Of a stretch of 64,000 bases of DNA, positions 1 through 30,411 are shown one piece after another (the first letter of the stretch is position 1; every line of letters starts with the position of its first letter). The notes beneath the pieces were generated by a model. The model saw only the letters and a program-made list of their open reading frames with translations, was not told the origin of the DNA and did not search any database. The position numbers were made by a program, and so were the translations under genes. This DNA is from Giardia intestinalis. Taxonomy: Eukaryota. The stretch lies in the NCBI GenBank assembly GCA_000002435.2, contig CM018789.1. One strand, written 5' to 3'.

Positions 1-592
1 AGTGCCTAACTGTCCTTGCCGGTGGCATTGCACAGCGAGTGCCCTGGAGGCGCCATCATGACTACGCTTTTCTGCTCTTTTGCTTACAGAGGCCATTACT
101 GTCTGTCCGCTCATGACACCATAAACACACAAGGTCAATCCCCCTGGCACTTTACTCAGAGGTGCGCCGGCTCTTTCGGAGAAGCGCTTCTCTGTGTAGC
201 TGTCTAGTGAACAGACCAGACACGGTGGTGCTATCAGCCAAGCCACTGCTGGGCAGAGCACACGGCCTGTATCTGCTCGTCTCGTGCTCTAGCCAGCCAC
301 CCCGCGTGAGCATCTGGAGGCGTGCCTGGACATATGCGTGGTATTCTGCGGTGTGCACGGTCTCGTGTCCGCACAGTAGGCCAGCCAGGGAGCGTGTGCA
401 GGCACGTCATGTGGCACCACGTCCTTTGTGGAATGCTGGAGGACCACACAGGCGAGGGTCTACCATCAAGATACGGACACGTTGCTTCCTGACATGGAAG
501 GTCAATGAGGCTATCCAGATGGCCCAGCCACGGTAGAAGGCTAGCAGATGTGATCGTATTGGCCACCAGCACTGTCACTAATACCAACATGC

Positions 593-3400
593 ATGATTAA
601 TAGATCTAGCAGGGCCGCAATGTTGCTACTAGTTCTTTGCTTTTTGATGAGCGCTCTCGCTGCACAATGCAAGGGGCACCAGCACTCCAACTGCGCAACC
701 GGCTGGTGCAGGGCGGTCCGTGGCGTCGAGGTCTGTATGAGGTGCAAAGCGGGCCACGTGCTGATCGACGGAGTGTGCGCTGATAACTCTGTTGTCTACG
801 GCGCGGGGTCCGCCTGCCAGATTCTAAACTGCAAGCAGTGTAACGCGGACAACACGCAGTGCGAGCAGTGCGAGGACGGATACACGCCGAGCGCCGGGAA
901 TACCCAGTGCAACGAGGACGCCGCGTCCGCCTGCCAGATTCTAAACTGCAAGCAGTGTAACGCGGACAACACGCAGTGCGAGCAGTGCGAGGACGGATAC
1001 ACGCCGAGCGCCGGGAATACCCAGTGCAACGAGGACGCCGCGTCCGCCTGCCAGATTCTAAACTGCAAGCAGTGTAACGCGGACAACACGCAGTGCGAGC
1101 AGTGCGAGGACGGATACACGCCGAGCGCCGGGAATACCCAGTGCAACGAGGACGCCGCGTCCGCCTGCCAGATTCTAAACTGCAAGCAGTGTAACGCGGA
1201 CAACACGCAGTGCGAGCAGTGCGAGGACGGATACACGCCGAGCGCCGGGAATACCCAGTGCAACGAGGACGCCGCGTCCGCCTGCCAGATTCTAAACTGC
1301 AAGCAGTGTAACGCGGACAACACGCAGTGCGAGCAGTGCGAGGACGGATACACGCCGAGCGCCGGGAATACCCAGTGCAACGAGGACGCCGCGTCCGCCT
1401 GCCAGATTCTAAACTGCAAGCAGTGTAACGCGGACAACACGCAGTGCGAGCAGTGCGAGGACGGATACACGCCGAGCGCCGGGAATACCCAGTGCAACGA
1501 GGACGCCGCGTCCGCCTGCCAGATTCTAAACTGCAAGCAGTGTAACGCGGACAACACGCAGTGCGAGCAGTGCGAGGACGGATACACGCCGAGCGCCGGG
1601 AATACCCAGTGCAACGAGGACGCCGCGTCCGCCTGCCAGATTCTAAACTGCAAGCAGTGTAACGCGGACAACACGCAGTGCGAGCAGTGCGAGGACGGAT
1701 ACACGCCGAGCGCCGGGAATACCCAGTGCAACGAGGACGCCGCGTCCGCCTGCCAGATTCTAAACTGCAAGCAGTGTAACGCGGACAACACGCAGTGCGA
1801 GCAGTGCGAGGACGGATACACGCCGAGCGCCGGGAATACCCAGTGCAACGAGGACGCCGCGTCCGCCTGCCAGATTCTAAACTGCAAGCAGTGTAACGCG
1901 GACAACACGCAGTGCGAGCAGTGCGAGGACGGATACACGCCGAGCGCCGGGAATACCCAGTGCAACGAGGACGCCGCGTCCGCCTGCCAGATTCTAAACT
2001 GCAAGCAGTGTAACGCGGACAACACGCAGTGCGAGCAGTGCGAGGACGGATACACGCCGAGCGCCGGGAATACCCAGTGCAACGAGGACGCCGCGTCCGC
2101 CTGCCAGATTCTAAACTGCAAGCAGTGTAACGCGGACAACACGCAGTGCGAGCAGTGCGAGGACGGATACACGCCGAGCGCCGGGAATACCCAGTGCAAC
2201 GAGGACGCCGCGTCCGCCTGCCAGATTCTAAACTGCAAGCAGTGTAACGCGGACAACACGCAGTGCGAGCAGTGCGAGGACGGATACACGCCGAGCGCCG
2301 GGAATACCCAGTGCAACGAGGACGCCGCGTCCGCCTGCCAGATTCTAAACTGCAAGCAGTGTAACGCGGACAACACGCAGTGCGAGCAGTGCGAGGACGG
2401 ATACACGCCGAGCGCCGGGAATACCCAGTGCAACGAGAACCCAGAAGCGCGGTGCAATACTCCCAACTGTAAGACCTGTGACAACCCCAAAACAGGCAAT
2501 GAAATCTGCACTAAATGTAATGATGGCGACTACCTCACCCCTACAAACCAGTGCGCACATGACTGCACAGCCATCAGCGGATACTACGGAGATACTGACA
2601 AGAAGTGTAAGCCATGCAGCCCTGAGTGCGCTGAGTGCGTTGGGCCAGCCAACAATCAGTGTAGTGCTTGTCCTGCAGGCAAGGCATTAACATATGGAGG
2701 TGGTGATCCTGCCCAAGGGGGCACCTGCGGGGATGCGTGTACGGCGGACAAGAACGGATGTAAGGTCTGTGGGGCAAGGATCGGCGGGACAGACTACTGC
2801 TCCCAGTGCTCAGTGGGTACTCAGGCTCCTCTGAACGGGGTCTGTACGGCCAACGCGCGTGCTCAGTTCTGCACACAAGTTACCAGTGGATCCTGCACGT
2901 CTTGTAGTGGGGGCTACTTCCTCAAGAATGGTGGCTGTTACCAGGCAGATAGACAGCCAGGCAAACAGATATGTACACTAGCTGATAGCAATGGTGGATG
3001 TCAGGCGTGTGCCAATGGTCTTCCTCCTAGTTCTTCTGACGTATGCCCCTCGTGTCATTTCACCTGCAAGACATGCTCGACCGCAGACATTGCAAATACT
3101 TGTACAACGTGTGCAACTGGGTACTACATGGTCGGATCAGGGCCAAACACATGTATTTCGTGTGAAAGTGACAGTGGAAGTGTCAAGGGAGTTGCTGGCT
3201 GCATGAGCTGCGCTCCTCCATCTAGCAATACTGGCTCCGTTCTCTGCTACCTCATGAACGGTGACAGTGCCGGCGGGAGCACGAATAAGAGCGGCCTTAG
3301 CACAGGTGCCATCGCTGGCATCTCTGTGGCTGTCATCGTCGTCGTCGGGGGACTCGTCGGCTTCCTCTGCTGGTGGTTCATCTGCAGGGGCAAAGCGTAG
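593..3400 (+). CDS. vsp: Variant-specific surface protein (VSP), long form with 14 x 39-aa tandem repeats
   Basis: 935-aa ORF. It has a hydrophobic signal-like N-terminus; MLLLVLCFLMSALAAQC from the second in-frame ATG at 620 may be the real start. It is Cys-rich with many CXXC motifs and a GGCY motif (FLKNGGCYQ). A C-terminal TM helix (GAIAGISVAVIVVVGGLVGFLCWWFI) is followed by CRGKA-stop. An AGTAAAC poly(A) signal lies just downstream. Confidence 0.95.
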   Translation: MINRSSRAAMLLLVLCFLMSALAAQCKGHQHSNCATGWCRAVRGVEVCMRCKAGHVLIDGVCADNSVVYGAGSACQILNCKQCNADNTQCEQCEDGYTPSAGNTQCNEDAASACQILNCKQCNADNTQCEQCEDGYTPSAGNTQCNEDAASACQILNCKQCNADNTQCEQCEDGYTPSAGNTQCNEDAASACQILNCKQCNADNTQCEQCEDGYTPSAGNTQCNEDAASACQILNCKQCNADNTQCEQCEDGYTPSAGNTQCNEDAASACQILNCKQCNADNTQCEQCEDGYTPSAGNTQCNEDAASACQILNCKQCNADNTQCEQCEDGYTPSAGNTQCNEDAASACQILNCKQCNADNTQCEQCEDGYTPSAGNTQCNEDAASACQILNCKQCNADNTQCEQCEDGYTPSAGNTQCNEDAASACQILNCKQCNADNTQCEQCEDGYTPSAGNTQCNEDAASACQILNCKQCNADNTQCEQCEDGYTPSAGNTQCNEDAASACQILNCKQCNADNTQCEQCEDGYTPSAGNTQCNEDAASACQILNCKQCNADNTQCEQCEDGYTPSAGNTQCNEDAASACQILNCKQCNADNTQCEQCEDGYTPSAGNTQCNENPEARCNTPNCKTCDNPKTGNEICTKCNDGDYLTPTNQCAHDCTAISGYYGDTDKKCKPCSPECAECVGPANNQCSACPAGKALTYGGGDPAQGGTCGDACTADKNGCKVCGARIGGTDYCSQCSVGTQAPLNGVCTANARAQFCTQVTSGSCTSCSGGYFLKNGGCYQADRQPGKQICTLADSNGGCQACANGLPPSSSDVCPSCHFTCKTCSTADIANTCTTCATGYYMVGSGPNTCISCESDSGSVKGVAGCMSCAPPSSNTGSVLCYLMNGDSAGGSTNKSGLSTGAIAGISVAVIVVVGGLVGFLCWWFICRGKA
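808..2437 (+). repeat. Perfect 117-bp tandem array, about 13.9 units, in frame within the VSP CDS
   Basis: The period was measured directly: cgcctgccag at 811 recurs at 928. The unit encodes SACQILNCKQCNADNTQCEQCEDGYTPSAGNTQCNEDAA (6 Cys, two CXXC). Units look nucleotide-identical by eye across lines 781-2460. 1630 bp / 117 = 13.9. Confidence 0.95.
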
Positions 3401-3412
3401 ATGTACTTAGAT

Positions 3413-3419
3413 AGTAAAC
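3413..3419 (+). promoter_or_regulatory. Giardia-type polyadenylation signal AGTAAAC for the left VSP
   Basis: AGTAAAC matches the AGTRAAY consensus and starts 13 nt after the TAG stop codon at 3398-3400. Confidence 0.7.
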
Positions 3420-3912
3420 GCGTCACTGTATAAAGCATATTATACTGTGATGGGGCCCTGCCTGTGGGAGCGTCCAGAAATCCCACGAGTAAGTCTCGCC
3501 CACGTCTTGGCCAATCTGAGAGCGAGAACTGGTTGTAGACAGCAAGCAGGGACTCCTCTTTATTAGTGTATCTAAAACTTGGCACCTTCTCCGGTCGCTC
3601 TGTGGGTGTGTGCTCAGTCTGGGTGTGCACGTCGGCCGTTTCGGGGTTCAGGCCTTCTCGCAGACTCTCTGGTCCACCAGTGGCGCCTCTCCTTGGTCTT
3701 CCTTCACGGTGAGTGAAGCCCGGGCCGCTGTCTTTTTTAGATGCCCCCGTCTGTCAGGGGCTGCCATCGGGCTCTCCGCTGGCTGGGCCCCTCGGTGTCC
3801 GTCCGGCTGTGGTTCTGGGTCAGCGCTTCCACAGTCGCGGTCACTTGGGTCTCAGTGGGCCGGCTGGTGGGTGGGGCGGGGGTATGGGCGGTGAGGACTG
3901 GTGGGACCGGGT

Positions 3913-5580
3913 GGGGGCTGAGATTGGTGTCCGTATGTGCTCCTGGGTTCGGTGGGCCATTGCGGCGGTGGGTGATCCCCTCTCTGTTTGCCAAGGTGGT
4001 TGTGTCTGATCCCCAGCCTTCGTTGCACTCCCGAGACACAGGCACCGACGATCGTGTCGTGTCCCCTGACTGAGCGCCTCCCTTGGCCCCTGCATGCCTC
4101 GGGCAGTACTGCTGCTCTGGTTGACTGGTACATGAGGGATGAGGCAGGCCATCGCAGCCTCTCCTGCTACTCGCTGATGCTCTGTGCGGGTCTGCTGGGC
4201 CCCTGGCATGCCCTGTCCAGTGCCTCGACGTAGTTCACCTCGGCCAGCAGGGGTGTGGATGAGCCGGTGGATGGGATGGGTTCTCTCAGGCCTCTAGTGT
4301 GATGGCCCAGAAGACTGGCACGGTGGGGCACTGGTGGCTGCACTGTCCCCGTGGTCAGCTGTGCTGCTCCTGGTGGGTCCTTGTCATGGAGCGCTGTGTG
4401 TTGTTCATAGGCAGAGGTGAGCCTCCTTGGTTTCAAGATGCTCTACCATGCAGAGAGGAGCACGCTGAGGGTCACCCATACCTCACATCTGCTGTGCCCG
4501 TTCGGGAGTTCCCGGTGTGGTCCACCAGGACCTTGACACCTCTCGTGGCTCTGATGACCCCTCGAGGAGAGCCGGGGTGTCCTATGCCAGGGGAGGCGTG
4601 CACCCTCCTGCATGAGCTGGGACCCACTGCACTGCCCTCAAGGAGGTCTGCTATGAGAGGCAGTGGGATGATTGACGGCCCCAGAGTGCGGTGGAGGGTG
4701 CTCGTGGTCATCTCTTGTGATCGGGCATCACTCTGATGGCCAGCTCTGTGCCTGTGTGGTGCTCAGAGGCCACCTGTCTGCCTCATCGCCTGCTGGACAG
4801 CCGGGTCTCTTGTGGTGTCCGAAGGCCTCCTCACTCCTCTGGCTGCTGCCCCCTCGGGTCATCAATGAAGACAGTCGAGGCCAGCGGAGTCTTCGGTGAG
4901 TCTGGTGCCTGCCTGGGTGTCATGGGGGCTGGCAGCTGTCAGGGCTCTGCCACTGCTCACCTGCCTGGAGTGTGCCTCCCTTGGACCTACTGTGCTGCGT
5001 GAGTCCTCTGGCTTCCTATCAGGCCCTGACTGTGAGGGTGACCCCACCTGGTCCTCTGATGCCCCTGTGGATGAGCATAGCAATGTGTCTGATTGAGGAT
5101 CTCTGGTGCCCGTGTCTGTTGCTGCCTCTCGGGTGCTCGGGTAGTTGCCTGGCACTCTCGTATGGGGGCACAGTCAGCGTGTCCCGAGCAGACTCCAGTC
5201 CTCTCTGGGTCCACACAGTCTGTTCGTGTGTGGATGATCCTCCTGCACTCAGGTCCATCTGTGCACACTATCACTCAGCCTCGAGAGCAGGCCAGTGCAG
5301 TCGCCAGGGTTGCTGTCAGAGGGAGTCGTCTGCCACTACATCGCTCGAGCAGACTCTACAGATCAGGCTGGCTGCTGTGCACCCTCATGGCAGGGCTGCC
5401 TGACTCCCCTTGGTCATCCTCTCTGTCCCGGTGTGCACGGCTCCTGAGGGTTGTCTGGGTGGAGGCACTCACAGACCACGAGCACACAGAGGGGTGAGTC
5501 ATAGATGGACAGCCATCAGTCACCACAGCTGCGATCACCCCAGTCTATCGAGGGACCAGGGGCACATACAGACACCCACC
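3913..5580. other. Unique GC-rich core of the inter-VSP spacer; no credible CDS
   Basis: This is the only part of 1-7971 without a mirror copy. Many overlapping 60-145 aa ORFs occur on both strands in several frames, as expected from stop-poor GC-rich DNA. I recognise no motif in any of them. Confidence 0.6.
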
Positions 5581-6073
5581 ACCCGGTCCCACCAGTCCTC
5601 ACCGCCCATACCCCCGCCCCACCCACCAGCCGGCCCACTGAGACCCAAGTGACCGCGACTGTGGAAGCGCTGACCCAGAACCACAGCCGGACGGACACCG
5701 AGGGGCCCAGCCAGCGGAGAGCCCGATGGCAGCCCCTGACAGACGGGGGCATCTAAAAAAGACAGCGGCCCGGGCTTCACTCACCGTGAAGGAAGACCAA
5801 GGAGAGGCGCCACTGGTGGACCAGAGAGTCTGCGAGAAGGCCTGAACCCCGAAACGGCCGACGTGCACACCCAGACTGAGCACACACCCACAGAGCGACC
5901 GGAGAAGGTGCCAAGTTTTAGATACACTAATAAAGAGGAGTCCCTGCTTGCTGTCTACAACCAGTTCTCGCTCTCAGATTGGCCAAGACGTGGGCGAGAC
6001 TTACTCGTGGGATTTCTGGACGCTCCCACAGGCAGGGCCCCATCACAGTATAATATGCTTTATACAGTGACGC

Positions 6074-6080
6074 GTTTACT
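6074..6080 (-). promoter_or_regulatory. Polyadenylation signal AGTAAAC for the right VSP (mirror of 3413-3419)
   Basis: The plus strand reads gtttact, whose reverse complement is AGTAAAC. Spacing from the stop codon is the same as on the left. Confidence 0.7.
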
Positions 6081-6092
6081 ATCTAAGTACAT

Positions 6093-7379
6093 CTACGCTT
6101 TGCCCCTGCAGATGAACCACCAGCAGAGGAAGCCGACGAGTCCCCCGACGACGACGATGACAGCCACAGAGATGCCAGCGATGGCACCTGTGCTAAGGCC
6201 GCTCTTATTCGTGCTCCCGCCGGCACTGTCACCGTTCATGAGGTAGCAGAGAACGGAGCCAGTATTGCTAGATGGAGGAGCGCAGCTCATGCAGCCAGCA
6301 ACTCCCTTGACACTTCCACTGTCACTTTCACACGAAATACATGTGTTTGGCCCTGATCCGACCATGTAGTACCCAGTTGCACACGTTGTACAAGTATTTG
6401 CAATGTCTGCGGTCGAGCATGTCTTGCAGGTGAAATGACACGAGGGGCATACGTCAGAAGAACTAGGAGGAAGACCATTGGCACACGCCTGACATCCACC
6501 ATTGCTATCAGCTAGTGTACATATCTGTTTGCCTGGCTGTCTATCTGCCTGGTAACAGCCACCATTCTTGAGGAAGTAGCCCCCACTACAAGACGTGCAG
6601 GATCCACTGGTAACTTGTGTGCAGAACTGAGCACGCGCGTTGGCCGTACAGACCCCGTTCAGAGGAGCCTGAGTACCCACTGAGCACTGGGAGCAGTAGT
6701 CTGTCCCGCCGATCCTTGCCCCACAGACCTTACATCCGTTCTTGTCCGCCGTACACGCATCCCCGCAGGTGCCCCCTTGGGCAGGATCACCACCTCCATA
6801 TGTTAATGCCTTGCCTGCAGGACAAGCACTACACTGATTGTTGGCTGGCCCAACGCACTCAGCGCACTCAGGGCTGCATGGCTTACACTTCTTGTCAGTA
6901 TCTCCGTAGTATCCGCTGATGGCTGTGCAGTCATGTGCGCACTGGTTTGTAGGGGTGAGGTAGTCGCCATCATTACATTTAGTGCAGATTTCATTGCCTG
7001 TTTTGGGGTTGTCACAGGTCTTACAGTTGGGAGTATTGCACCGCGCTTCTGGGTTCTCGTTGCACTGGGTATTCCCGGCGCTCGGCGTGTATCCGTCCTC
7101 GCACTGCTCGCACTGCGTGTTGTCCGCGTTACACTGCTTGCAGTTTAGAATCTGGCAGGCGGACCCCGCGCCGTAGACAACAGAGTTATCAGCGCACACT
7201 CCGTCGATCAGCACGTGGCCCGCTTTGCACCTCATACAGACCTCGACGCCACGGACCGCCCTGCACCAGCCGGTTGCGCAGTTGGAGTGCTGGTGCCCCT
7301 TGCATTGTGCAGCGAGAGCGCTCATCAAAAAGCAAAGAACTAGTAGCAACATTGCGGCCCTGCTAGATCTATTAATCAT
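6093..7379 (-). CDS. vsp: Variant-specific surface protein (VSP), short form with a single repeat unit
   Basis: 428-aa ORF. It is amino-acid-identical to the left VSP at the N-terminus (first ~110 aa) and C-terminus (last ~318 aa, including GGCY, the TM helix and CRGKA). It lacks 507 aa, which equals 13 repeat units. An alternative start at 7352 mirrors 620. Confidence 0.95.
   Translation of the reverse strand: MINRSSRAAMLLLVLCFLMSALAAQCKGHQHSNCATGWCRAVRGVEVCMRCKAGHVLIDGVCADNSVVYGAGSACQILNCKQCNADNTQCEQCEDGYTPSAGNTQCNENPEARCNTPNCKTCDNPKTGNEICTKCNDGDYLTPTNQCAHDCTAISGYYGDTDKKCKPCSPECAECVGPANNQCSACPAGKALTYGGGDPAQGGTCGDACTADKNGCKVCGARIGGTDYCSQCSVGTQAPLNGVCTANARAQFCTQVTSGSCTSCSGGYFLKNGGCYQADRQPGKQICTLADSNGGCQACANGLPPSSSDVCPSCHFTCKTCSTADIANTCTTCATGYYMVGSGPNTCISCESDSGSVKGVAGCMSCAPPSSNTGSVLCYLMNGDSAGGSTNKSGLSTGAIAGISVAVIVVVGGLVGFLCWWFICRGKA
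7056..7164 (-). repeat. Single copy of the 117-bp repeat unit in the short VSP
   Basis: The mirror coordinates of 808-2437 collapse to 109 bp (1630-1521). The protein reads ...GSACQILNCKQCNADNTQCEQCEDGYTPSAGNTQCNENPEA... only once. Confidence 0.9.
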
Positions 7380-8049
7380 GCATGTTGGTATTAGTGACAG
7401 TGCTGGTGGCCAATACGATCACATCTGCTAGCCTTCTACCGTGGCTGGGCCATCTGGATAGCCTCATTGACCTTCCATGTCAGGAAGCAACGTGTCCGTA
7501 TCTTGATGGTAGACCCTCGCCTGTGTGGTCCTCCAGCATTCCACAAAGGACGTGGTGCCACATGACGTGCCTGCACACGCTCCCTGGCTGGCCTACTGTG
7601 CGGACACGAGACCGTGCACACCGCAGAATACCACGCATATGTCCAGGCACGCCTCCAGATGCTCACGCGGGGTGGCTGGCTAGAGCACGAGACGAGCAGA
7701 TACAGGCCGTGTGCTCTGCCCAGCAGTGGCTTGGCTGATAGCACCACCGTGTCTGGTCTGTTCACTAGACAGCTACACAGAGAAGCGCTTCTCCGAAAGA
7801 GCCGGCGCACCTCTGAGTAAAGTGCCAGGGGGATTGACCTTGTGTGTTTATGGTGTCATGAGCGGACAGACAGTAATGGCCTCTGTAAGCAAAAGAGCAG
7901 AAAAGCGTAGTCATGATGGCGCCTCCAGGGCACTCGCTGTGCAATGCCACCGGCAAGGACAGTTAGGCACTGCCAATAGGCCAGTCTGCGTCAGTAAACA
8001 CGCAGTGTTCGCAGGCCGAACCATGTACCTTTGCAAGCGGGCAGTGTAA

Positions 8050-24306: not shown

Positions 24307-27300
24307 ATGACCACGTTTGTGAGTACCTTTCTTCCGGTGGGGGATCGTTTGAGCGACCCGGATTACGCTGATAACGCAGTCCAGACAGTACTGTATTTCC
24401 CCAAGCTGGCAATTTTTGCTGAGACAACAACGATCTATTCTACCTCATACAAGCCCAACGATTCCCATGGGCCCATTGGACTTACGTACCTGAATGAAAG
24501 TGTTAATAACGGCATCATCTTATCCGTTTCAAAGCGGAGCGCGTCCTCATTTCTCTGCCTATCTGCTATTGTAAAGGATAGTGACCCTGACAGTCTCTCT
24601 GCTCTCAAATTCCTCCAGCATAGGATCAGTGTGAGGCGTGATGTTGGTAATCCAGACGTCTCAGCAGATTTACACACTCTGGAATATCTTCTAATCCATA
24701 ACAAGATGTACACCACCTACACGGTGTACAGTGTGACTGATGCTCAGTGCGAATTAAAGTACGTTGCCCCCACGTCAGTACCCTTGATTGGAGCCATCGC
24801 TGTGGAGGGGACGCCATTTATTGCTGCCACTGGTGTTTCAAAAGACGGCTATAACTTTACATTTGATTGTCTTCTTGATGAGGATAATGGGGGGAAGCTT
24901 ATCCCTGTGCGCACCGTTAAACAGAAAACAGGAGACGTCACATCCTTCGTTGACACAGCCCTTTACCCCGCCATCAATATGATATCTGACCGCCCCTCTA
25001 CCGCATGTACTACTCCTGCAACGACAGTCAAAGACTTTGTCCATCAGGTTAGCTCTCGTAACACGCGCGCTGCATCTGATGTTCTGTATAAATTTTCTGC
25101 TGTCCACCTAGATTCTAGTACAAAAACTGTGTACTACAGAGAGTACGATTTGAAATCGACTAACTTACGAGTCATACATGCCCCAGGTACAAAGAAGTCG
25201 GATAAGCACAAGGCAGCAGACTCAGTTGATTATAGTGCGACCATAGAAAGCTTCAAGCCAACTGTCCATTATACCAGGACGCTCATTGTTAACTCTGCGG
25301 TGCCCATTGTTCGTATTGCAGCGCTAGTTATGCCGTATACGCAGAACTCGCTTCTCAATGACAAGTACGCCGTTATCACAGACTGCGGTGACCTTCAACT
25401 TTATTCCAGGAGAGAGCAGGCAGACGGTCCTTCTGCTAGCATCAAAGTGTTTTCTAAAAAGCTAAGACGAGCGTTCCTTGTGCCTCTCAGAGATGGAGTT
25501 ATCATGCTCACCTCTTCTACCGGGGAGTCTGCTTTAGTTGGCATAGATGGCAAGTGGAACTCCGACAAAAATATTGAAGAAATGCGGGGCCATCTCTGCA
25601 AAATCTTTATTGATGAGTTCTTAGCAACTAATCCTAATTACGACCAACAGAATTTGAGACACGAGCTGTCGAAGGACCTTCTCCCGCCTATTGACTCCTT
25701 TTCCAAGTCAGTTCAGGTGAAGAAGCACATAGATAAGCTAGCAATAATAACCACCTTCTCGTACAATTCGACTGTCACCTGTGCCTCCACGGCTCCTGAT
25801 CATAAGCTTGTTTGTTTGGGCTTGACATCCCGAAAGTTCATCTTTGTGCCCACAGAGCCGATCAAGAACAGGGCTCTTTTGTCAAGCTATAGAGGTAAGC
25901 TGAGCCGCGAAACTGCTAATAATCTGCAGGGACAGTACACAAAGTATGATGTAGAGGCTGCAGTGAAGGATACTGTCGCGTACTTGGCCAACCGGGGCCT
26001 TAATGGTCAGCAGCTCATGGAGCGTGTTAGCTTTTTCTTCGCATTTTCAAAGGACGTGGGGCACTCAGACTTTTTGCCTGTGCAAGAAAGTGTTCTAGAT
26101 GTTGCAAATCATAACCACGATGCTCCATCAGATACGATTGAAATGCTCTCCATTCTGGCATCTGTCACTAAGGACGAGGTTCTGGGGAAGTCTAGCTTGG
26201 CGGCCTATGACCCTGATCTCGGGAAATCCATGATAAACGACCTCAGGGAGGTGATGCGCAGTACGTTAAGGACGGTCGCCGTCCCCGGTGTCGGATCCAC
26301 GGCGATCCCAGGAGAAGGAGCCCTTCAGGCTTCCGATCATCATCTTCTTGCAGATCAGCTTTCGGACCATACTGGAACACGCTCTAAACGAGTTGAGTTC
26401 CTGGAGCCAACGCTGCGTGGAGCAAAGCTGTCGACTGCAATTAATTTCACTCTTGCGGATCTGAGTGCCATAGAGACAAGAGGATTAACTGAAGCTAACG
26501 GCTCCCACGTTGCTGCACCGATACACTCTGCCAGCGGACTTTATCAGACAGATCGAAATGTGGTGCAAGAACCCCCAGATCACGCTCATCTAGACTCATT
26601 AATAGAGGAGAATTTTAAGAATCATCTTGTTGATGCAACTCGTAACCTTTTAGAGTCGGGCTTCGACTGTCAGAGACTTTTTAACGCCGTCGAGGAAGAC
26701 GTGAAAACTGCCATACTTAGTATGATGAATGTTTCTGACCTGAATGAGGACTCCAGAACTGCGCGACTGGCAGATCTTCCATTGGTGCCTCATCACGCTG
26801 ATGAGCGTGTCACGTCAGGCAGAGACGCAATGTTAGATGAATATCCGGCTGAGCCAGGGGTTAACGTTCCCGTGTCTCTCTTGTCTGCGGCTTGGCTTGG
26901 AGCAATTAGTAATAGTCTAGCTGTTAGGGATACTACGAGACATCCTGTACAGCTTCCTGTGCTTAGCAACCTAGGCGGCGCCAAGTTGTTGCTAACTCAT
27001 TACAAGGAGATCCAGGAAAAGAAATATACTTTAGTACGGAATAAGTTTACTTTGGCGCTAGAGCTACTATTAGCTGATGATCCTCTTTTTTTGGCAGCCT
27101 CCTGCTCCGCCAGGGGGTTGTCTAGCATGAAGAATTCATATTATTTGACAGACTATATTCGCCGGGAGCATGAAGAGATCTCACAGTGCCCATACTGCTC
27201 CGTTTTTTCCATTCGATGCAATCTTTTCCAGCTCTCTTCGCGTGGAGAGACTGTGTGCAGCACAACTGAGCGCTTGCTGTGCGAGATCTTAGATAGCTCA

Positions 27301-28593
27301 CACGAGATAAGGCAGGACTATGCTGTCCGTATTATTGCAGGAATGGAGGCCTTCTTGACAAGAGTATATCAAGAAGATCTTAATACGGCAATGACTGCCC
27401 CCGGGGAGGAACCGCTGGCATCCTTGCAGTATACACAGTTTCCTCAGCGTCTCATTACATTTGTCCCCGATGGAGGGCTGGTGAATAATTTGACTTTCAT
27501 GCAAGACATTGCAGGACCCAGTGGAGCTCCTCAAAAGGTCAGATATGAGCTTATTGGAACCATATCACAGGACTGCTTGGCTGTTTACAAGCTAGATACT
27601 GTCGGTAGATGGTGTATGCTCGAAGGCAGTGATTCTACCGGGCTCACCATCAGTATCAGGCCCAATGACGTAGCAGATAATAGTTTTTATGCCGTATACA
27701 AGCAAGTCAGTGGCTCAGAAGGTGCAGTAGGAGTGCCCCTGGATTCGTTGCACAACATCATGACACTGGCATACGGTACCGACGATACTCTGCGGCCGTC
27801 TGCAGAGATACCGGATTCTGATCTCAATCCGCTCAGCGATTCGTCCTTGAAGAAAGAAATATCTCTTTTAAAATCTCAGTTGGAGTACCGAACAAGGCGT
27901 GAAGAGAGAGCGACAGAAAAGGCACAAGCATTAAGCGCAGAGAACCATGAACTGAAGAAGAAGATTGAGTCACTGAAAGTTGATTTGAAATTCGAAGAAA
28001 TGCTTACAAAAAGCGAACTTCTTCGTCAGCAGAGTGCAGCGGAAAATGCAGAGCAGGACCGCAGGCTAGATGAGCTCTTGCGTCTTCAAACAGAATTGCG
28101 GCAACGTGAAAGCGAGGAGAAGATCTTGATATTAGAGCTCGAGGAGGCTCGCAGGAGAATCGCAGACTTGGTGCATACCCGCGAGACAGCCGACATAGAT
28201 GAATACGATGTAATACTGAAGCATTGCTACACTACCTTGGGTGGAGATGAGGCAGACGTACCTGAAAAGCGCAAGGAGCTCCTGCTGATGTTACAGAAGC
28301 AGTGCATTGCAGTGTCGACAGAGTATGACTTGAATAACCCCTATCGCAAAGGAAGCATGCGGCTATCATATGGTCCAGCAAGGGCCTCACAAATGCGCAT
28401 GTCAAGAAGCAGGGCCGATGCCCGATCCATAGCTCAGAGCTTGGAAGCGTTCCATGTTTCAGACCTTCAAGACAATGAGTTGGGGAACAGAAAGGTAATA
28501 GCGACTACGCTTCTTCCTGTCATTTGTTTCTTTATTGGAATAGCGATCATTGTTATTTTTGCGATGGCATTCAACAGGAACGACGTCGTATGA
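24307..28593 (+). CDS. Large tail-anchored coiled-coil protein with a degenerate USP-like (pseudo-deubiquitinase) region
   Basis: 1428-aa uninterrupted ORF. A C-terminal coiled coil (LKSQLEYRTRREERATEKAQALSAENHELKKKIESLK...) is followed by a terminal TM helix (VIATTLLPVICFFIGIAIIVIFAMAF). The USP-like blocks are described in the findings. Confidence 0.9.
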   Translation: MTTFVSTFLPVGDRLSDPDYADNAVQTVLYFPKLAIFAETTTIYSTSYKPNDSHGPIGLTYLNESVNNGIILSVSKRSASSFLCLSAIVKDSDPDSLSALKFLQHRISVRRDVGNPDVSADLHTLEYLLIHNKMYTTYTVYSVTDAQCELKYVAPTSVPLIGAIAVEGTPFIAATGVSKDGYNFTFDCLLDEDNGGKLIPVRTVKQKTGDVTSFVDTALYPAINMISDRPSTACTTPATTVKDFVHQVSSRNTRAASDVLYKFSAVHLDSSTKTVYYREYDLKSTNLRVIHAPGTKKSDKHKAADSVDYSATIESFKPTVHYTRTLIVNSAVPIVRIAALVMPYTQNSLLNDKYAVITDCGDLQLYSRREQADGPSASIKVFSKKLRRAFLVPLRDGVIMLTSSTGESALVGIDGKWNSDKNIEEMRGHLCKIFIDEFLATNPNYDQQNLRHELSKDLLPPIDSFSKSVQVKKHIDKLAIITTFSYNSTVTCASTAPDHKLVCLGLTSRKFIFVPTEPIKNRALLSSYRGKLSRETANNLQGQYTKYDVEAAVKDTVAYLANRGLNGQQLMERVSFFFAFSKDVGHSDFLPVQESVLDVANHNHDAPSDTIEMLSILASVTKDEVLGKSSLAAYDPDLGKSMINDLREVMRSTLRTVAVPGVGSTAIPGEGALQASDHHLLADQLSDHTGTRSKRVEFLEPTLRGAKLSTAINFTLADLSAIETRGLTEANGSHVAAPIHSASGLYQTDRNVVQEPPDHAHLDSLIEENFKNHLVDATRNLLESGFDCQRLFNAVEEDVKTAILSMMNVSDLNEDSRTARLADLPLVPHHADERVTSGRDAMLDEYPAEPGVNVPVSLLSAAWLGAISNSLAVRDTTRHPVQLPVLSNLGGAKLLLTHYKEIQEKKYTLVRNKFTLALELLLADDPLFLAASCSARGLSSMKNSYYLTDYIRREHEEISQCPYCSVFSIRCNLFQLSSRGETVCSTTERLLCEILDSSHEIRQDYAVRIIAGMEAFLTRVYQEDLNTAMTAPGEEPLASLQYTQFPQRLITFVPDGGLVNNLTFMQDIAGPSGAPQKVRYELIGTISQDCLAVYKLDTVGRWCMLEGSDSTGLTISIRPNDVADNSFYAVYKQVSGSEGAVGVPLDSLHNIMTLAYGTDDTLRPSAEIPDSDLNPLSDSSLKKEISLLKSQLEYRTRREERATEKAQALSAENHELKKKIESLKVDLKFEEMLTKSELLRQQSAAENAEQDRRLDELLRLQTELRQRESEEKILILELEEARRRIADLVHTRETADIDEYDVILKHCYTTLGGDEADVPEKRKELLLMLQKQCIAVSTEYDLNNPYRKGSMRLSYGPARASQMRMSRSRADARSIAQSLEAFHVSDLQDNELGNRKVIATTLLPVICFFIGIAIIVIFAMAFNRNDVV

Positions 28594-29632: not shown

Positions 29633-30367
29633 TTAAGCATCCTCAGGGTCAGCAACTAGGTCTTCCTCCCCGAGAGGCTCGAAGATACTACCCCTGGTAA
29701 ATCCCACGGTGGCCCTTTCCCATTGGTGCAGTGGACAGACGGACTTACAGACTCCGTCCAGCCAGGTGTCAATGGAGCAAAAGTGGAGCTTTTTCAATTC
29801 CCAAACAGTGCTCTTGAACTTGTAGCTATCAAACACACTAACCACTTGCTTGCGAAACCGGCTCCCGAGACAACGTTCAGGGGTTGCTTCCCCGCCAAGA
29901 TAGATCTCCACATGCACCATGTCGTGCTTTTGCGGCCGTTTTTTGTTGTTGAAGTAAACCCCCTCATAGAAAATGAGGTCGCCTTCGCGGATAAGGTCAT
30001 GGGTGTCATAGCGGAGGGGGAGGGTGTCAAATTGATATGCTTGGTTGTAGGGCAGGGGCTCAAAACCAAACTCGTCCTTTAAGTCCATTAGAGCCTGTCT
30101 TATGAGTCCGCAACAGTCAAGCTGAAGGGGGTAGGCAGCCAGTTCGGAGCCTTCTGGATGCTCTTTGCGAGAGTAGGGTGTACCGCAGTAGCCCATGGCT
30201 TTCTCAATGAAGAGCCTGCGAAGTCTATCCTTCTCTGCCTGGGTGCGTTGAATGGGCTTGGCCCGAGCCGCAATCTTTGCCCGTTCGGCTCGCTTCTTTT
30301 CTAGAAACGTTTGGAACGCGTCTTGAAGAGAACAGGTGGTGTCGTGCGTGTCCTCTTGCGCATCCAT
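29633..30367 (-). CDS. NlpC/P60-family (C40) cysteine peptidase-like protein, no signal peptide
   Basis: 244 aa. It carries the canonical blocks AMGYCGTPYS (GtPY-wGG), QLDCCGLIRQAL (fDCSGlv, catalytic Cys) and REGDLIFYEG...HDMVHVEIYLGG (GDLvFf...HVgIY-G, catalytic His). The N-terminus is charged, not hydrophobic. Confidence 0.85.
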   Translation of the reverse strand: MDAQEDTHDTTCSLQDAFQTFLEKKRAERAKIAARAKPIQRTQAEKDRLRRLFIEKAMGYCGTPYSRKEHPEGSELAAYPLQLDCCGLIRQALMDLKDEFGFEPLPYNQAYQFDTLPLRYDTHDLIREGDLIFYEGVYFNNKKRPQKHDMVHVEIYLGGEATPERCLGSRFRKQVVSVFDSYKFKSTVWELKKLHFCSIDTWLDGVCKSVCPLHQWERATVGFTRGSIFEPLGEEDLVADPEDA

Positions 30368-30411
30368 TTAAGATCTTTGCCTAAAAATACCATTTAAAAA
30401 ATCTATAGGAA

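What the first reader, a model, noticed from the sequence alone, without database searches (positions are those of the whole stretch)
29633..30367. Canonical bacterial-type NlpC/P60 peptidase domain in a cytosolic-looking protist protein
The ORF carries the full NlpC/P60 (C40) signature in order: GTPY, LDCCGL with the nucleophile Cys, GDLIFY and HVEIYLGG with the His. This family is best known as bacterial peptidoglycan gamma-D-glutamyl endopeptidases. Trichomonas is reported to have acquired secreted NlpC/P60 enzymes by lateral transfer. This protein instead has a charged, helical N-terminus (KKRAERAKIAARAK...) and no signal peptide. It could therefore be a lateral-transfer candidate repurposed for an intracellular substrate, or a member of an under-described eukaryotic branch of the family.
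Basis: partly seen in the sequence, partly recalled or inferred. Interest (0 to 1): 0.5.

Follow-up and report, generated by a model that had tools for sequence, protein, structure and literature searches.

The report
Giardia homologue of TTLL10's peptidase domain
This Giardia gene encodes a cytosolic cysteine peptidase from an old, eukaryote-wide family that in animals and brown algae forms the unstudied N-terminal half of the tubulin polyglycylase TTLL10, which makes it a candidate for the still-unidentified enzyme that removes glycine (or glutamate) side chains from tubulin.

Summary

It is not a recent bacterial transfer. A signature scan of 185,579 bacterial and archaeal genomes gave one hit, which is a mis-binned ciliate-like contig. 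Homologues at 40-60% identity occur in diplomonads, Carpediemonas, a jakobid, ciliates, a dinoflagellate, stramenopiles, prasinophytes, hemimastigotes, choanoflagellates and animals. A tree follows that taxonomy.

The new point is a domain fusion. In 137 of 410 fetched relatives the domain is fused, always N-terminally, to a tubulin-tyrosine-ligase-like domain. The named ones are TTLL10 polyglycylases from sponges to crocodiles, plus a fusion in Ectocarpus. All nine sampled mammalian TTLL10 and four teleost ones lack it. Cys85, His152 and Glu154 never vary.

I infer an isopeptidase acting on glycyl or glutamyl side chains of tubulin and 14-3-3, probably a deglycylase or debranching enzyme. The activity is untested. 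I found no paper describing the link.

The parts
29633..30367 (-). Complete ORF of 244 aa plus stop: the stand-alone NlpC/P60-like cysteine peptidase, homologous to the TTLL10 N-terminal domain.
   Evidence: ORF listing. An orthologue of the same length lies in conserved synteny on a related Giardia contig, L001. Between the two, pN is 0.065 and pS is 0.81.
30194..30331 (-). N-terminal pair of long helices (aa 13-58). It includes the conserved SLQDAFxxF motif and the invariant R50 and F53.
   Evidence: The AlphaFold secondary structure has helices at 14-36 and 43-58. Conservation in alignment A1. The same motif is present in TTLL10 fusions.
29738..30193 (-). Papain-like NlpC/P60 catalytic core (aa 59-210).
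30110..30115 (-). Codons for Cys85 and Cys86 (LDCCGL). Cys85 is the predicted nucleophile. The adjacent Cys86 replaces the Ser of the canonical DCSG motif.
   Evidence: Cys85 is present in 275 of 275 aligned members and Cys86 in 272 of 275. It aligns to the DCSG Cys of 3npf.
29906..29914 (-). Codons for His152-Val153-Glu154 (HVE). His152 is the predicted general base. The invariant Glu154 replaces the Gly of the canonical HVG.
   Evidence: His152 is present in 289 of 289 members and Glu154 in 289 of 289. It aligns to HVGIYLG of 3npf.
29858..29866 (-). Codons for Gly168-Ser169-Arg170, on the strand where canonical enzymes carry the third catalytic His. Here it reads Gly, then Ala or Ser, then a near-invariant Arg.
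   Evidence: Column counts. The correspondence to MepS His131 comes from a hand alignment and is an inference.
29636..29683 (-). Acidic C-terminal tail (aa 229-244, EPLGEEDLVADPEDA, charge about -7) following the conserved S-I-F motif.
   Evidence: The 25 residues after SIF are 37% Asp or Glu and 4% Lys or Arg, averaged over 255 family members.
30368..30411 (-). A 44-bp AT-rich intergenic stretch shared with the divergently transcribed GYF-domain gene. It is the presumed short Giardia-type promoter and initiator.
   Evidence: Sequence. Neighbouring ORF and its GYF domain. Promoter function is inferred from general knowledge of Giardia genes and was not tested.

Best explanation
The gene encodes a soluble cytosolic Cys-His amidase or isopeptidase with the NlpC/P60 fold. 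It belongs to an ancient, eukaryote-specific family whose members are either stand-alone, as in Giardia, Spironucleus, Carpediemonas, heterotrich ciliates and choanoflagellates, or form the N-terminal domain of the polyglycylase TTLL10, as in sponges through reptiles, Ectocarpus and ochromonad-like stramenopiles.

Proposed mechanism: Cys85, at the N-terminus of the core helix, attacks an amide bond in the amino-acid side chains that TTLL ligases build on the gamma-carboxyl of glutamates in acidic protein tails. In Giardia those tails belong to tubulin and 14-3-3. His152 acts as the general base and is probably oriented by the invariant Glu154, because the canonical third His is a Gly. Invariant arginines (R50, R90, R170) would bind substrate carboxylates.

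The most likely reaction is deglycylation. That means either trimming polyglycine or cutting the gamma-Glu-Gly branch-point isopeptide, which is chemically the same kind of bond (gamma-glutamyl to amine) that bacterial NlpC/P60 enzymes cut in peptidoglycan. The enzyme would be the eraser to the TTLL3/TTLL10 writers.

Shown: the fold, the conserved catalytic residues, the absence of a secretion signal, the eukaryote-wide distribution and the fusion to TTLL10. Inferred: the substrate, the bond cleaved and the role of Glu154.

For: Catalytic residues are never substituted: Cys85 in 275/275, His152 in 289/289, Glu154 in 289/289 aligned members (gaps excluded). N108, Q109, G129, D130, R90 and R170 are all at or above 99%. 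The gene is under strong purifying selection, pN 0.065 against pS 0.81.

Domain fusion:
- Seven of ten long relatives carry a C-terminal Pfam TTL domain, and two of the other three are truncated at the start of that domain.
- Among 410 fetched relatives, 137 carry both domains.
- In the earlier set of 340, all 112 fused proteins had the peptidase domain first.
- The named fused proteins are TTLL10 from Ambystoma, turtles, Crocodylus, Latimeria, sharks, echinoderms, Lingula, molluscs, cnidarians and sponges. Ectocarpus also has a fusion.
- The window protein is 47% identical to the axolotl TTLL10 N-domain, E=2e-55.
- The TTL domains of protist fusions score 110-220 bits against metazoan TTLL10, compared with 79-87 bits against solved TTL and TTLL3.

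The field has a gap that fits. [quoted passage not shown] In Giardia, 14-3-3 keeps a short glycine chain (fewer than ten residues) even when the two known M20 deglycylases are overexpressed (PMC3962474).

Every named organism that carries the family builds cilia or flagella at some life stage.
Against: - No biochemical or localisation data exist for any member.
- The link to glycylation rests on guilt by association through domain fusion.
- The window protein itself is not fused, and no TTL domain lies anywhere in the 64-kb window. I could not determine whether Giardia has a TTLL10-type ligase.
- Giardia already has reported deglycylases of another family, the M20 peptidases gDIP1/2 (Lalle 2011, as cited).
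- The canonical third catalytic residue is missing, and I could not inspect model coordinates to verify the Glu154-His152 geometry.
- All nine sampled mammalian TTLL10 and four teleost ones lack the domain, so it is not required for ligase function. Mouse TTLL10 is an active polyglycylase (from my own knowledge, not checked here).
- The fusion would also be compatible with a deglutamylase, or with some other tail-processing role.
- I did not establish absence from lineages that lack glycylation, such as trypanosomatids and Trichomonas. The searches list only the best 120 hits.
Confidence: 0.45

Rival explanations
1. The enzyme is a deglutamylase rather than a deglycylase. It would cut the gamma-Glu-Glu branch point or glutamate chains on tubulin tails. 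When fused to TTLL10, it would clear glutamylated sites that compete with glycylation.
For: The same fusion and conservation evidence applies. Bacterial NlpC/P60 enzymes act on gamma-glutamyl bonds (family knowledge; descriptions). TTLL10 is recruited and stimulated by glutamylated tubulin (title and text of 10.1101/2024.03.31.587457). Glycylation and glutamylation share sites (general knowledge).
Against: Eukaryotes already have dedicated deglutamylases, the CCP and TMCP families, including a branch-point enzyme. Every named fusion partner is the glycine elongase TTLL10, and none is named as a TTLL4/5/6/7-type glutamylase. Clearing a site would still need an initiating glycylase.
Confidence: 0.2
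2. The protein is a peptidoglycan hydrolase acquired from bacteria, as in Trichomonas or Trepomonas, and is used to digest bacterial cell walls or muropeptides.
For: It has the NlpC/P60 fold, and its best structural matches are peptidoglycan endopeptidases, including T. vaginalis NlpC1. There is a weak Pfam NLPC_P60 hit.
Against: No signal peptide, membrane segment or cell-wall-binding module. No prokaryotic family member in 185,579 genomes. It is present in animals, algae and ciliates with a taxon-congruent tree. It is fused to a cytosolic tubulin-modifying ligase. Diplomonad genomics papers list bacterial-type NlpC/P60 hydrolases as absent from Giardia and Spironucleus, so this protein is not one of that type.
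Confidence: 0.03
3. The domain processes tubulin or other acidic-tail proteins in a different way, for example by removing main-chain C-terminal residues as vasohibin does. Alternatively it acts on a small gamma-glutamyl or glycyl metabolite. In either case the TTLL10 fusion would reflect co-localisation only.
For: Papain-like cysteine peptidases acting on tubulin tails have a precedent in the vasohibins (mentioned). The conserved acidic tail and invariant arginines suggest acidic substrates but do not define the bond. One environmental member is fused to a U-box instead of a TTL domain.
Against: 137 fusions to one ligase type, in one fixed order where this was checked, across at least two supergroups, favour action on that ligase's product. 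The Gsp synthetase/amidase precedent points the same way.
Confidence: 0.2
4. The domain is a non-catalytic reader or adaptor that binds modified tails and targets TTLL10, or another partner in Giardia.
For: The canonical third triad residue is missing. Mammalian TTLL10 works without the domain (plus general knowledge).
Against: Cys85 and His152 are never substituted in the 275 and 289 aligned sequences spanning most of eukaryote diversity. Glu154, N108, Q109 and D130 are equally fixed. Pseudo-enzymes normally lose these residues.
Confidence: 0.07

Closest known systems
N-terminal domain of non-mammalian TTLL10 polyglycylases (e.g. Ambystoma mexicanum, Nematostella, Strongylocentrotus; labelled 'NlpC/P60 domain-containing protein' for some UniProt entries)
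   Same: Same family. 47% identity over 184 residues, E=2e-55. Identical signature residues: GxPY, LDCCGL, NQ, GDL, HxxxHVE, GxR. The same N-terminal SLQxAF helix and acidic tail are present.
   Different: The Giardia protein is stand-alone at 244 aa and has no TTL ligase domain in the same gene or nearby. The function of the domain has not been studied in any organism, as far as the searchable literature shows.
Bacterial NlpC/P60 (MEROPS C40) gamma-D-glutamyl-diamino-acid endopeptidases (LytE, SagA, RipA/B, YkfC, MepS) and the laterally acquired T. vaginalis NlpC_A1/A2
   Different: Only 15-24% identity, and below the Pfam threshold. No signal peptide or SH3b/LysM modules. The third catalytic His is replaced by Gly, HVG becomes HVE, and DCSG becomes DCCG. 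Extra N-terminal helices and C-terminal elements are present. Distribution is eukaryote-only.
Glutathionylspermidine synthetase/amidase and trypanothione synthetase-amidase (CHAP amidase + ATP-grasp ligase)
   Different: A different subfamily (CHAP rather than P60-like), a different ligase family, and small-molecule substrates. This is an analogy, not orthology.
Known erasers of tubulin-type polymodifications: CCP1-6 and TMCP deglutamylases (metallocarboxypeptidases) and Giardia gDIP1/2 (M20 metallopeptidases acting on 14-3-3 polyglycine)
   Same: The proposed role is the same: removal of TTLL-added amino-acid side chains.
   Different: Unrelated folds and chemistry, metallo-exopeptidases against a cysteine amidase. 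Those enzymes are experimentally shown, and this one is not.

Membership tests
NlpC/P60 superfamily, P60-like (Pfam PF00877 / MEROPS C40) | Scores above the curated Pfam gathering threshold | tested here: not met
   18.8 bits against a cut-off of 23. Most family members score 16-23 bits.
NlpC/P60 superfamily, P60-like (Pfam PF00877 / MEROPS C40) | Papain-like alpha+beta fold with a non-permuted order (Cys helix before His strand) | tested here: met
NlpC/P60 superfamily, P60-like (Pfam PF00877 / MEROPS C40) | Nucleophile Cys in D-C-x-G and general-base His in H-V-x-I-Y, aligned with solved enzymes | tested here: met
   Profile alignment to 3npf and 3pvq. Neither residue is ever substituted in the family.
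NlpC/P60 superfamily, P60-like (Pfam PF00877 / MEROPS C40) | Third polar triad residue (His, Glu, Gln or Asn) on the strand after the His strand | tested here: inconclusive
   The equivalent position is Gly168, which is Gly in 255 of 272 members. The equivalence rests on a hand alignment to MepS. Model coordinates could not be inspected. The invariant Glu154 may substitute for the missing residue.
Secreted peptidoglycan hydrolases acquired by lateral transfer (Trichomonas / Trepomonas type) | Bacterial sister group in searches or phylogeny | tested here: not met
   All 89 direct hits look eukaryotic. The GTDB scan found only a mis-binned ciliate-like contig. The tree is congruent with taxonomy.
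Secreted peptidoglycan hydrolases acquired by lateral transfer (Trichomonas / Trepomonas type) | Signal peptide and/or cell-wall-binding modules | tested here: not met
   No hydrophobic segment; maximum Kyte-Doolittle 19-residue mean 0.92. No other Pfam domain. A dedicated SignalP run was not available.
TTLL10 N-terminal peptidase-like domain family (unnamed eukaryotic clade) | Signature motifs LDCCGL(V/I)R, NQxYQ(F/M)DTLP, GDL(I/V)F, HxxxHVE, SI(D/E)TWL | tested here: met
   Alignment A1 and column counts. Family HMM score 370.8 bits, E=5.8e-113, for the window ORF.
TTLL10 N-terminal peptidase-like domain family (unnamed eukaryotic clade) | Strong pairwise similarity to the N-domain of a named TTLL10 | tested here: met
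   BLASTP 178 bits, 47% identity, E=2e-55 against Ambystoma TTLL10 residues 29-209.
TTLL10 N-terminal peptidase-like domain family (unnamed eukaryotic clade) | Covalent fusion to a TTL (ATP-grasp) ligase domain | tested here: not met
   The window protein ends 16 residues after the domain, and there is no TTL domain in the 64-kb window. Stand-alone forms are also found in Stentor, Blepharisma, Carpediemonas and Salpingoeca.
Protein deglycylase / deglutamylase (functional class) | Hydrolysis of TTLL-added Gly or Glu side chains on tubulin or 14-3-3 | not testable with these tools
   Needs enzyme assays. Only domain-fusion and conservation evidence is available.

The most novel reading that the evidence does not exclude
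This family is the long-sought deglycylase of the tubulin code. It would be a cysteine isopeptidase that cuts the gamma-Glu-Gly branch point, or trims polyglycine, on tubulin and other TTLL substrates. It would have been present in the last eukaryotic common ancestor, be built into TTLL10 as a writer-eraser bifunctional enzyme in most animals and in stramenopiles, and be free-standing in Giardia. It would have been overlooked because mammals, and possibly other standard models (the only Xenopus TTLL10 construct studied ends at residue 570, too short to hold the domain), lack it, and because Pfam scores it below threshold.
Probability: 0.3. Interest if true: 0.9.

Novelty: new variant of a known kind. 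Interest (0 to 1): 0.7.

Why it matters
Glycylation of tubulin controls the stability and motility of cilia and flagella. It is the one major tubulin-tail modification whose eraser is still unknown. A conserved cysteine amidase with an intact active site, physically fused to the polyglycylase TTLL10 from sponges to reptiles and in brown algae, is a concrete and cheaply testable candidate.

Giardia offers it as a small, soluble, intron-less 244-aa protein. The organism also has well-characterised polyglycylated substrates in tubulin and 14-3-3.

The result corrects two things in the record. Diplomonad genomics papers list NlpC/P60 cell-wall hydrolases as absent from Giardia and Spironucleus. 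That remains true for the bacterial-type hydrolases, but a distinct NlpC/P60-fold family is present. Also, TTLL10 biochemistry has so far used a truncated Xenopus construct (residues 105-570) and, to my knowledge, mammalian enzymes, which lack the domain.

If the protein is absent from the human host (all nine sampled mammalian TTLL10 lack the domain), it could also be considered as a parasite-specific target.

Tried and rejected
- Pfam, NCBIfam and a PDB sequence search with the single protein gave at best a sub-threshold hit.
- The AFDB Foldseek library was unavailable. Taxon-labelled structural neighbours could not be obtained, and model coordinates are not exposed, so the Glu154-His152 geometry remains unverified.
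- Genomic context in the window is uninformative. The neighbours are KH, GYF, WD40, PX and phosphoglucomutase genes, and there is no TTLL. Giardia has no operons.
- The one 'bacterial' family member, from a Desulfobacterium MAG, was examined and rejected as a mis-binned ciliate-like contig.
- N-terminal extensions of other relatives were scanned for more fusion partners. I found tandem duplicates, an Rdx domain and an MFS transporter fragment (the last probably a merged gene model), and one U-box fusion. None is recurrent.
- Literature searches for NlpC with Giardia, TTLL, tubulin or cilia, and for TTLL10 alone, found no description of this domain or link. Anantharaman & Aravind 2003 and Lalle et al. 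2011 are not held in the library, so an early mention there cannot be excluded.
- I could not determine Giardia's own TTLL repertoire, or establish absence of the family from lineages that do not glycylate.

Full report
**Observation.** The window carries Giardia variant-specific surface protein genes at 593-3400 (+) and 6093-7379 (-) (Pfam VSP, E=1e-100 and 1e-91). It also has about 48% GC and long intron-less ORFs, so it is a Giardia chromosome segment. At 29633..30367 on the minus strand there is one ATG-to-stop ORF of 244 aa. A 44-bp AT-rich spacer, shared with a divergent GYF-domain gene, precedes it. An orthologue of identical length lies in conserved synteny on a related Giardia contig (86% amino-acid and 77.7% nucleotide identity). 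Between the two, pN is 0.065 and pS is 0.81, so this is a functional gene under strong purifying selection. There is no hydrophobic segment: the maximum Kyte-Doolittle 19-residue mean is 0.92, and the first 30 residues average -1.13.

By sequence it is an outlier. Pfam NLPC_P60 gives 18.8 bits against a cut-off of 23. NCBIfam and a single-sequence PDB search give nothing. Three features depart from the canonical pattern:
- DCSG is DCCG.
- HVG is HVE.
- The position of the third catalytic His is Gly168, by hand alignment to MepS His131.

All three features are family-wide.

**Where does it come from?** The direct search found 89 homologues, and a profile search found 685 with E≤1e-8. An exhaustive scan of 1.84 billion cluster representatives found 1065 (337 at E<1e-30). 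Named members come from:
- Metamonads: Giardia muris (68%), Spironucleus salmonicida (61%), Carpediemonas membranifera.
- Discoba: the jakobid Andalucia godoyi.
- Ciliates: Stentor coeruleus and Blepharisma stoltei.
- A dinoflagellate: Prorocentrum.
- Stramenopiles: Ochromonadaceae sp. and Ectocarpus.
- Prasinophytes: Cymbomonas and Pyramimonas.
- Hemimastigotes: the transcriptome sets labelled Hemi2 and Spiro4.
- Choanoflagellates: Salpingoeca rosetta (47%).
- Many animals.

A neighbour-joining tree of the domain (231 columns, 100 bootstraps) recovers diplomonads (100), Giardia (98), choanoflagellates (98), prasinophytes (98), an ochromonad-like group (86-87) and vertebrates (100). Opisthokonts group together with weak support.

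I scanned one genome for each of 185,579 bacterial and archaeal species with the two most conserved family peptides. That gave a single confirmed locus, on a contig labelled as a Desulfobacterium MAG. The locus is 22-30% GC, has almost no ORFs under table 11, and reads through only with TAA/TAG as Gln and with small introns. It is a mis-binned ciliate-like eukaryote. The family therefore looks eukaryote-specific, ancient and mainly vertically inherited. [quoted passage not shown] That is correct for the bacterial-type enzymes, and it shows that this family had not been noticed there.

**The decisive clue is a domain fusion.** Many relatives are 600-2200 aa long with the family domain at the N-terminus. 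Seven of ten such proteins have a C-terminal Pfam TTL (tubulin-tyrosine ligase family) domain, E=1e-33 to 1e-57. Two of the other three are truncated just after the start of the same domain. One of them, P0123, is NCBI's 'inactive polyglycylase TTLL10' of Ambystoma mexicanum. Searching with it returns full-length matches named TTLL10 from newts, turtles, crocodile, caecilians, coelacanth, sturgeon, bichir, lizards, snakes and sharks. It also returns echinoderms, a hemichordate, Lingula, molluscs, annelids, nemerteans, cnidarians and sponges.

Local HMM searches on all fetched proteins show 137 of 410 with both domains. In the earlier set of 340, all 112 fused proteins had the peptidase domain first. 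Ectocarpus and several ochromonad-like environmental proteins have the same architecture. Their TTL domains score 110-220 bits against metazoan TTLL10, compared with 79-87 bits against solved TTL and TTLL3 and 60 bits or less against TTLL6, 7 and 11. The window protein is 47% identical to the axolotl N-domain (E=2e-55).

From sponges to crocodiles, all 19 signature residues are intact. All nine mammalian TTLL10 sampled lack the domain, as do four teleost proteins. One further teleost, Aldrovandia, keeps only a decayed remnant. Across the family:
- Cys85 is present in 275 of 275 aligned sequences.
- His152 in 289 of 289.
- Glu154 in 289 of 289.
- Asp84 in 273 of 274.
- Asn108 in 280 of 282.
- Gln109 in 282 of 282.
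- Gly129 and Asp130 in 286 of 286.
- Arg90 in 277 of 278.
- Arg170 in 269 of 271.

I therefore propose that the family hydrolyses TTLL-made side chains. The most probable reaction is glycine removal, either debranching at gamma-Glu-Gly or trimming of polyglycine. Cys85 would be the nucleophile and His152 the base. Glu154 would be a relocated third residue filling the space left by Gly168. The invariant arginines would bind carboxylates.

This fits a recognised gap. [quoted passage not shown] In Giardia, tubulin and 14-3-3 are polyglycylated. The two reported deglycylases are M20 metallopeptidases, and overexpressing them still leaves a short chain of fewer than ten glycines (PMC3962474). That leaves room for a separate branch-point enzyme. 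The biochemical study of TTLL10 used Xenopus tropicalis residues 105-570. Mammalian TTLL10 lacks the domain, which would explain why it has been overlooked. Searches for NlpC together with TTLL (0 papers) or with tubulin (42 papers, none relevant) found no description of the link. Some UniProt entries do carry the automatic label 'NlpC/P60 domain-containing protein'.

**Caveats and rivals.**
- Everything about substrate and reaction is inference from domain fusion and conservation.
- The Giardia protein is not fused, no TTLL lies in the window, and I could not establish Giardia's TTLL repertoire.
- A deglutamylase role cannot be excluded. TTLL10 is stimulated by glutamylated tubulin, and the two modifications compete for sites.
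- A different tail-processing reaction also remains possible.
- A purely non-catalytic reader is unlikely, given the catalytic residues that are never substituted.
- A peptidoglycan hydrolase of bacterial origin is effectively excluded.
- I could not inspect model coordinates.
- I could not show absence of the family from lineages that lack glycylation.

**Verdict.** The finding gains interest because this branch is the uncharacterised peptidase-like half of TTLL10. That gives a specific, testable candidate for the missing eraser of protein glycylation.

Noticed in passing
window 593-3400 (+) and 6093-7379 (-); GC 55-62% over window 1-8000: There are two Giardia variant-specific surface protein genes (Pfam VSP, E=1e-100 and 1e-91) in a block richer in GC than the rest of the window, which is about 48% GC. 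They identify the organism. A 571-aa antisense ORF at 796-2511 lies inside the first gene and is probably a by-product of the GC-rich composition.
   Followed up: partly
L002 (CAXXVR010000009.1, 1.72-Mb contig titled 'MAG: uncultured Desulfobacterium sp.'), match at 2804-3541: A contig deposited as a bacterial MAG carries a family member that reads only with the ciliate genetic code (TAA/TAG as Gln) and small frame-shifting introns. The surrounding 6.5 kb is 22-30% GC with almost no table-11 ORFs. The contig is very probably a mis-binned eukaryote (ciliate-like).
   Followed up: partly
window 29636-29683 (-), aa 229-244; also relatives in general: After a conserved S-I-F motif, family members carry an acidic tail. 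It is 37% Asp or Glu and 4% Lys or Arg over 25 residues in 255 proteins, and reads EPLGEEDLVADPEDA here. It resembles the acidic tails that TTLL enzymes modify. It could be a pseudo-substrate or autoinhibitory segment, or be modified itself.
   Followed up: partly
relatives P0284-P0326 (mammals), P0304/P0312/P0327 (teleosts), P0281 (Aldrovandia affinis): All nine sampled mammalian TTLL10 and four teleost proteins lack the N-terminal peptidase-like domain. Mammals have Arg/Pro-rich low-complexity sequence in its place. Aldrovandia keeps a decayed fragment (…GDLVFTSGTYF… without the Cys or His motifs). The tarpon Megalops cyprinoides keeps an intact copy. The domain seems to have been lost repeatedly in vertebrates.
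   Followed up: partly
relative P0366 (environmental, 694 aa): One family member is fused to a U-box (ubiquitin-ligase) domain at residues 492-559 instead of a TTL domain. It is a single case of unknown organism.
   Followed up: no
window 30110-30115 (-), Cys85-Cys86: The nucleophile is followed by a second, almost invariant Cys (272 of 275), where bacterial enzymes have Ser. A vicinal Cys pair next to the active site could be a redox switch. The amidase Cys of E. coli Gsp synthetase/amidase is known to be regulated by oxidation (my own knowledge, not checked here).
   Followed up: no
window 24307-28593 (+): A 1428-aa protein with no Pfam match has a coiled-coil-like, Glu/Arg/Lys-rich region near its C-terminus and a single hydrophobic segment at the extreme C-terminus (…LLPVICFFIGIAIIVIFAMAF…), which suggests a tail-anchored protein. 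It is conserved in synteny in the related Giardia contig L001.
   Followed up: no
family-wide: Pfam NLPC_P60 scores almost every member of this eukaryotic family at 16-23 bits, at or just under the 23-bit gathering cut-off. Most are therefore left unannotated, and the precomputed Pfam column is '-' for most hits.
   Followed up: yes
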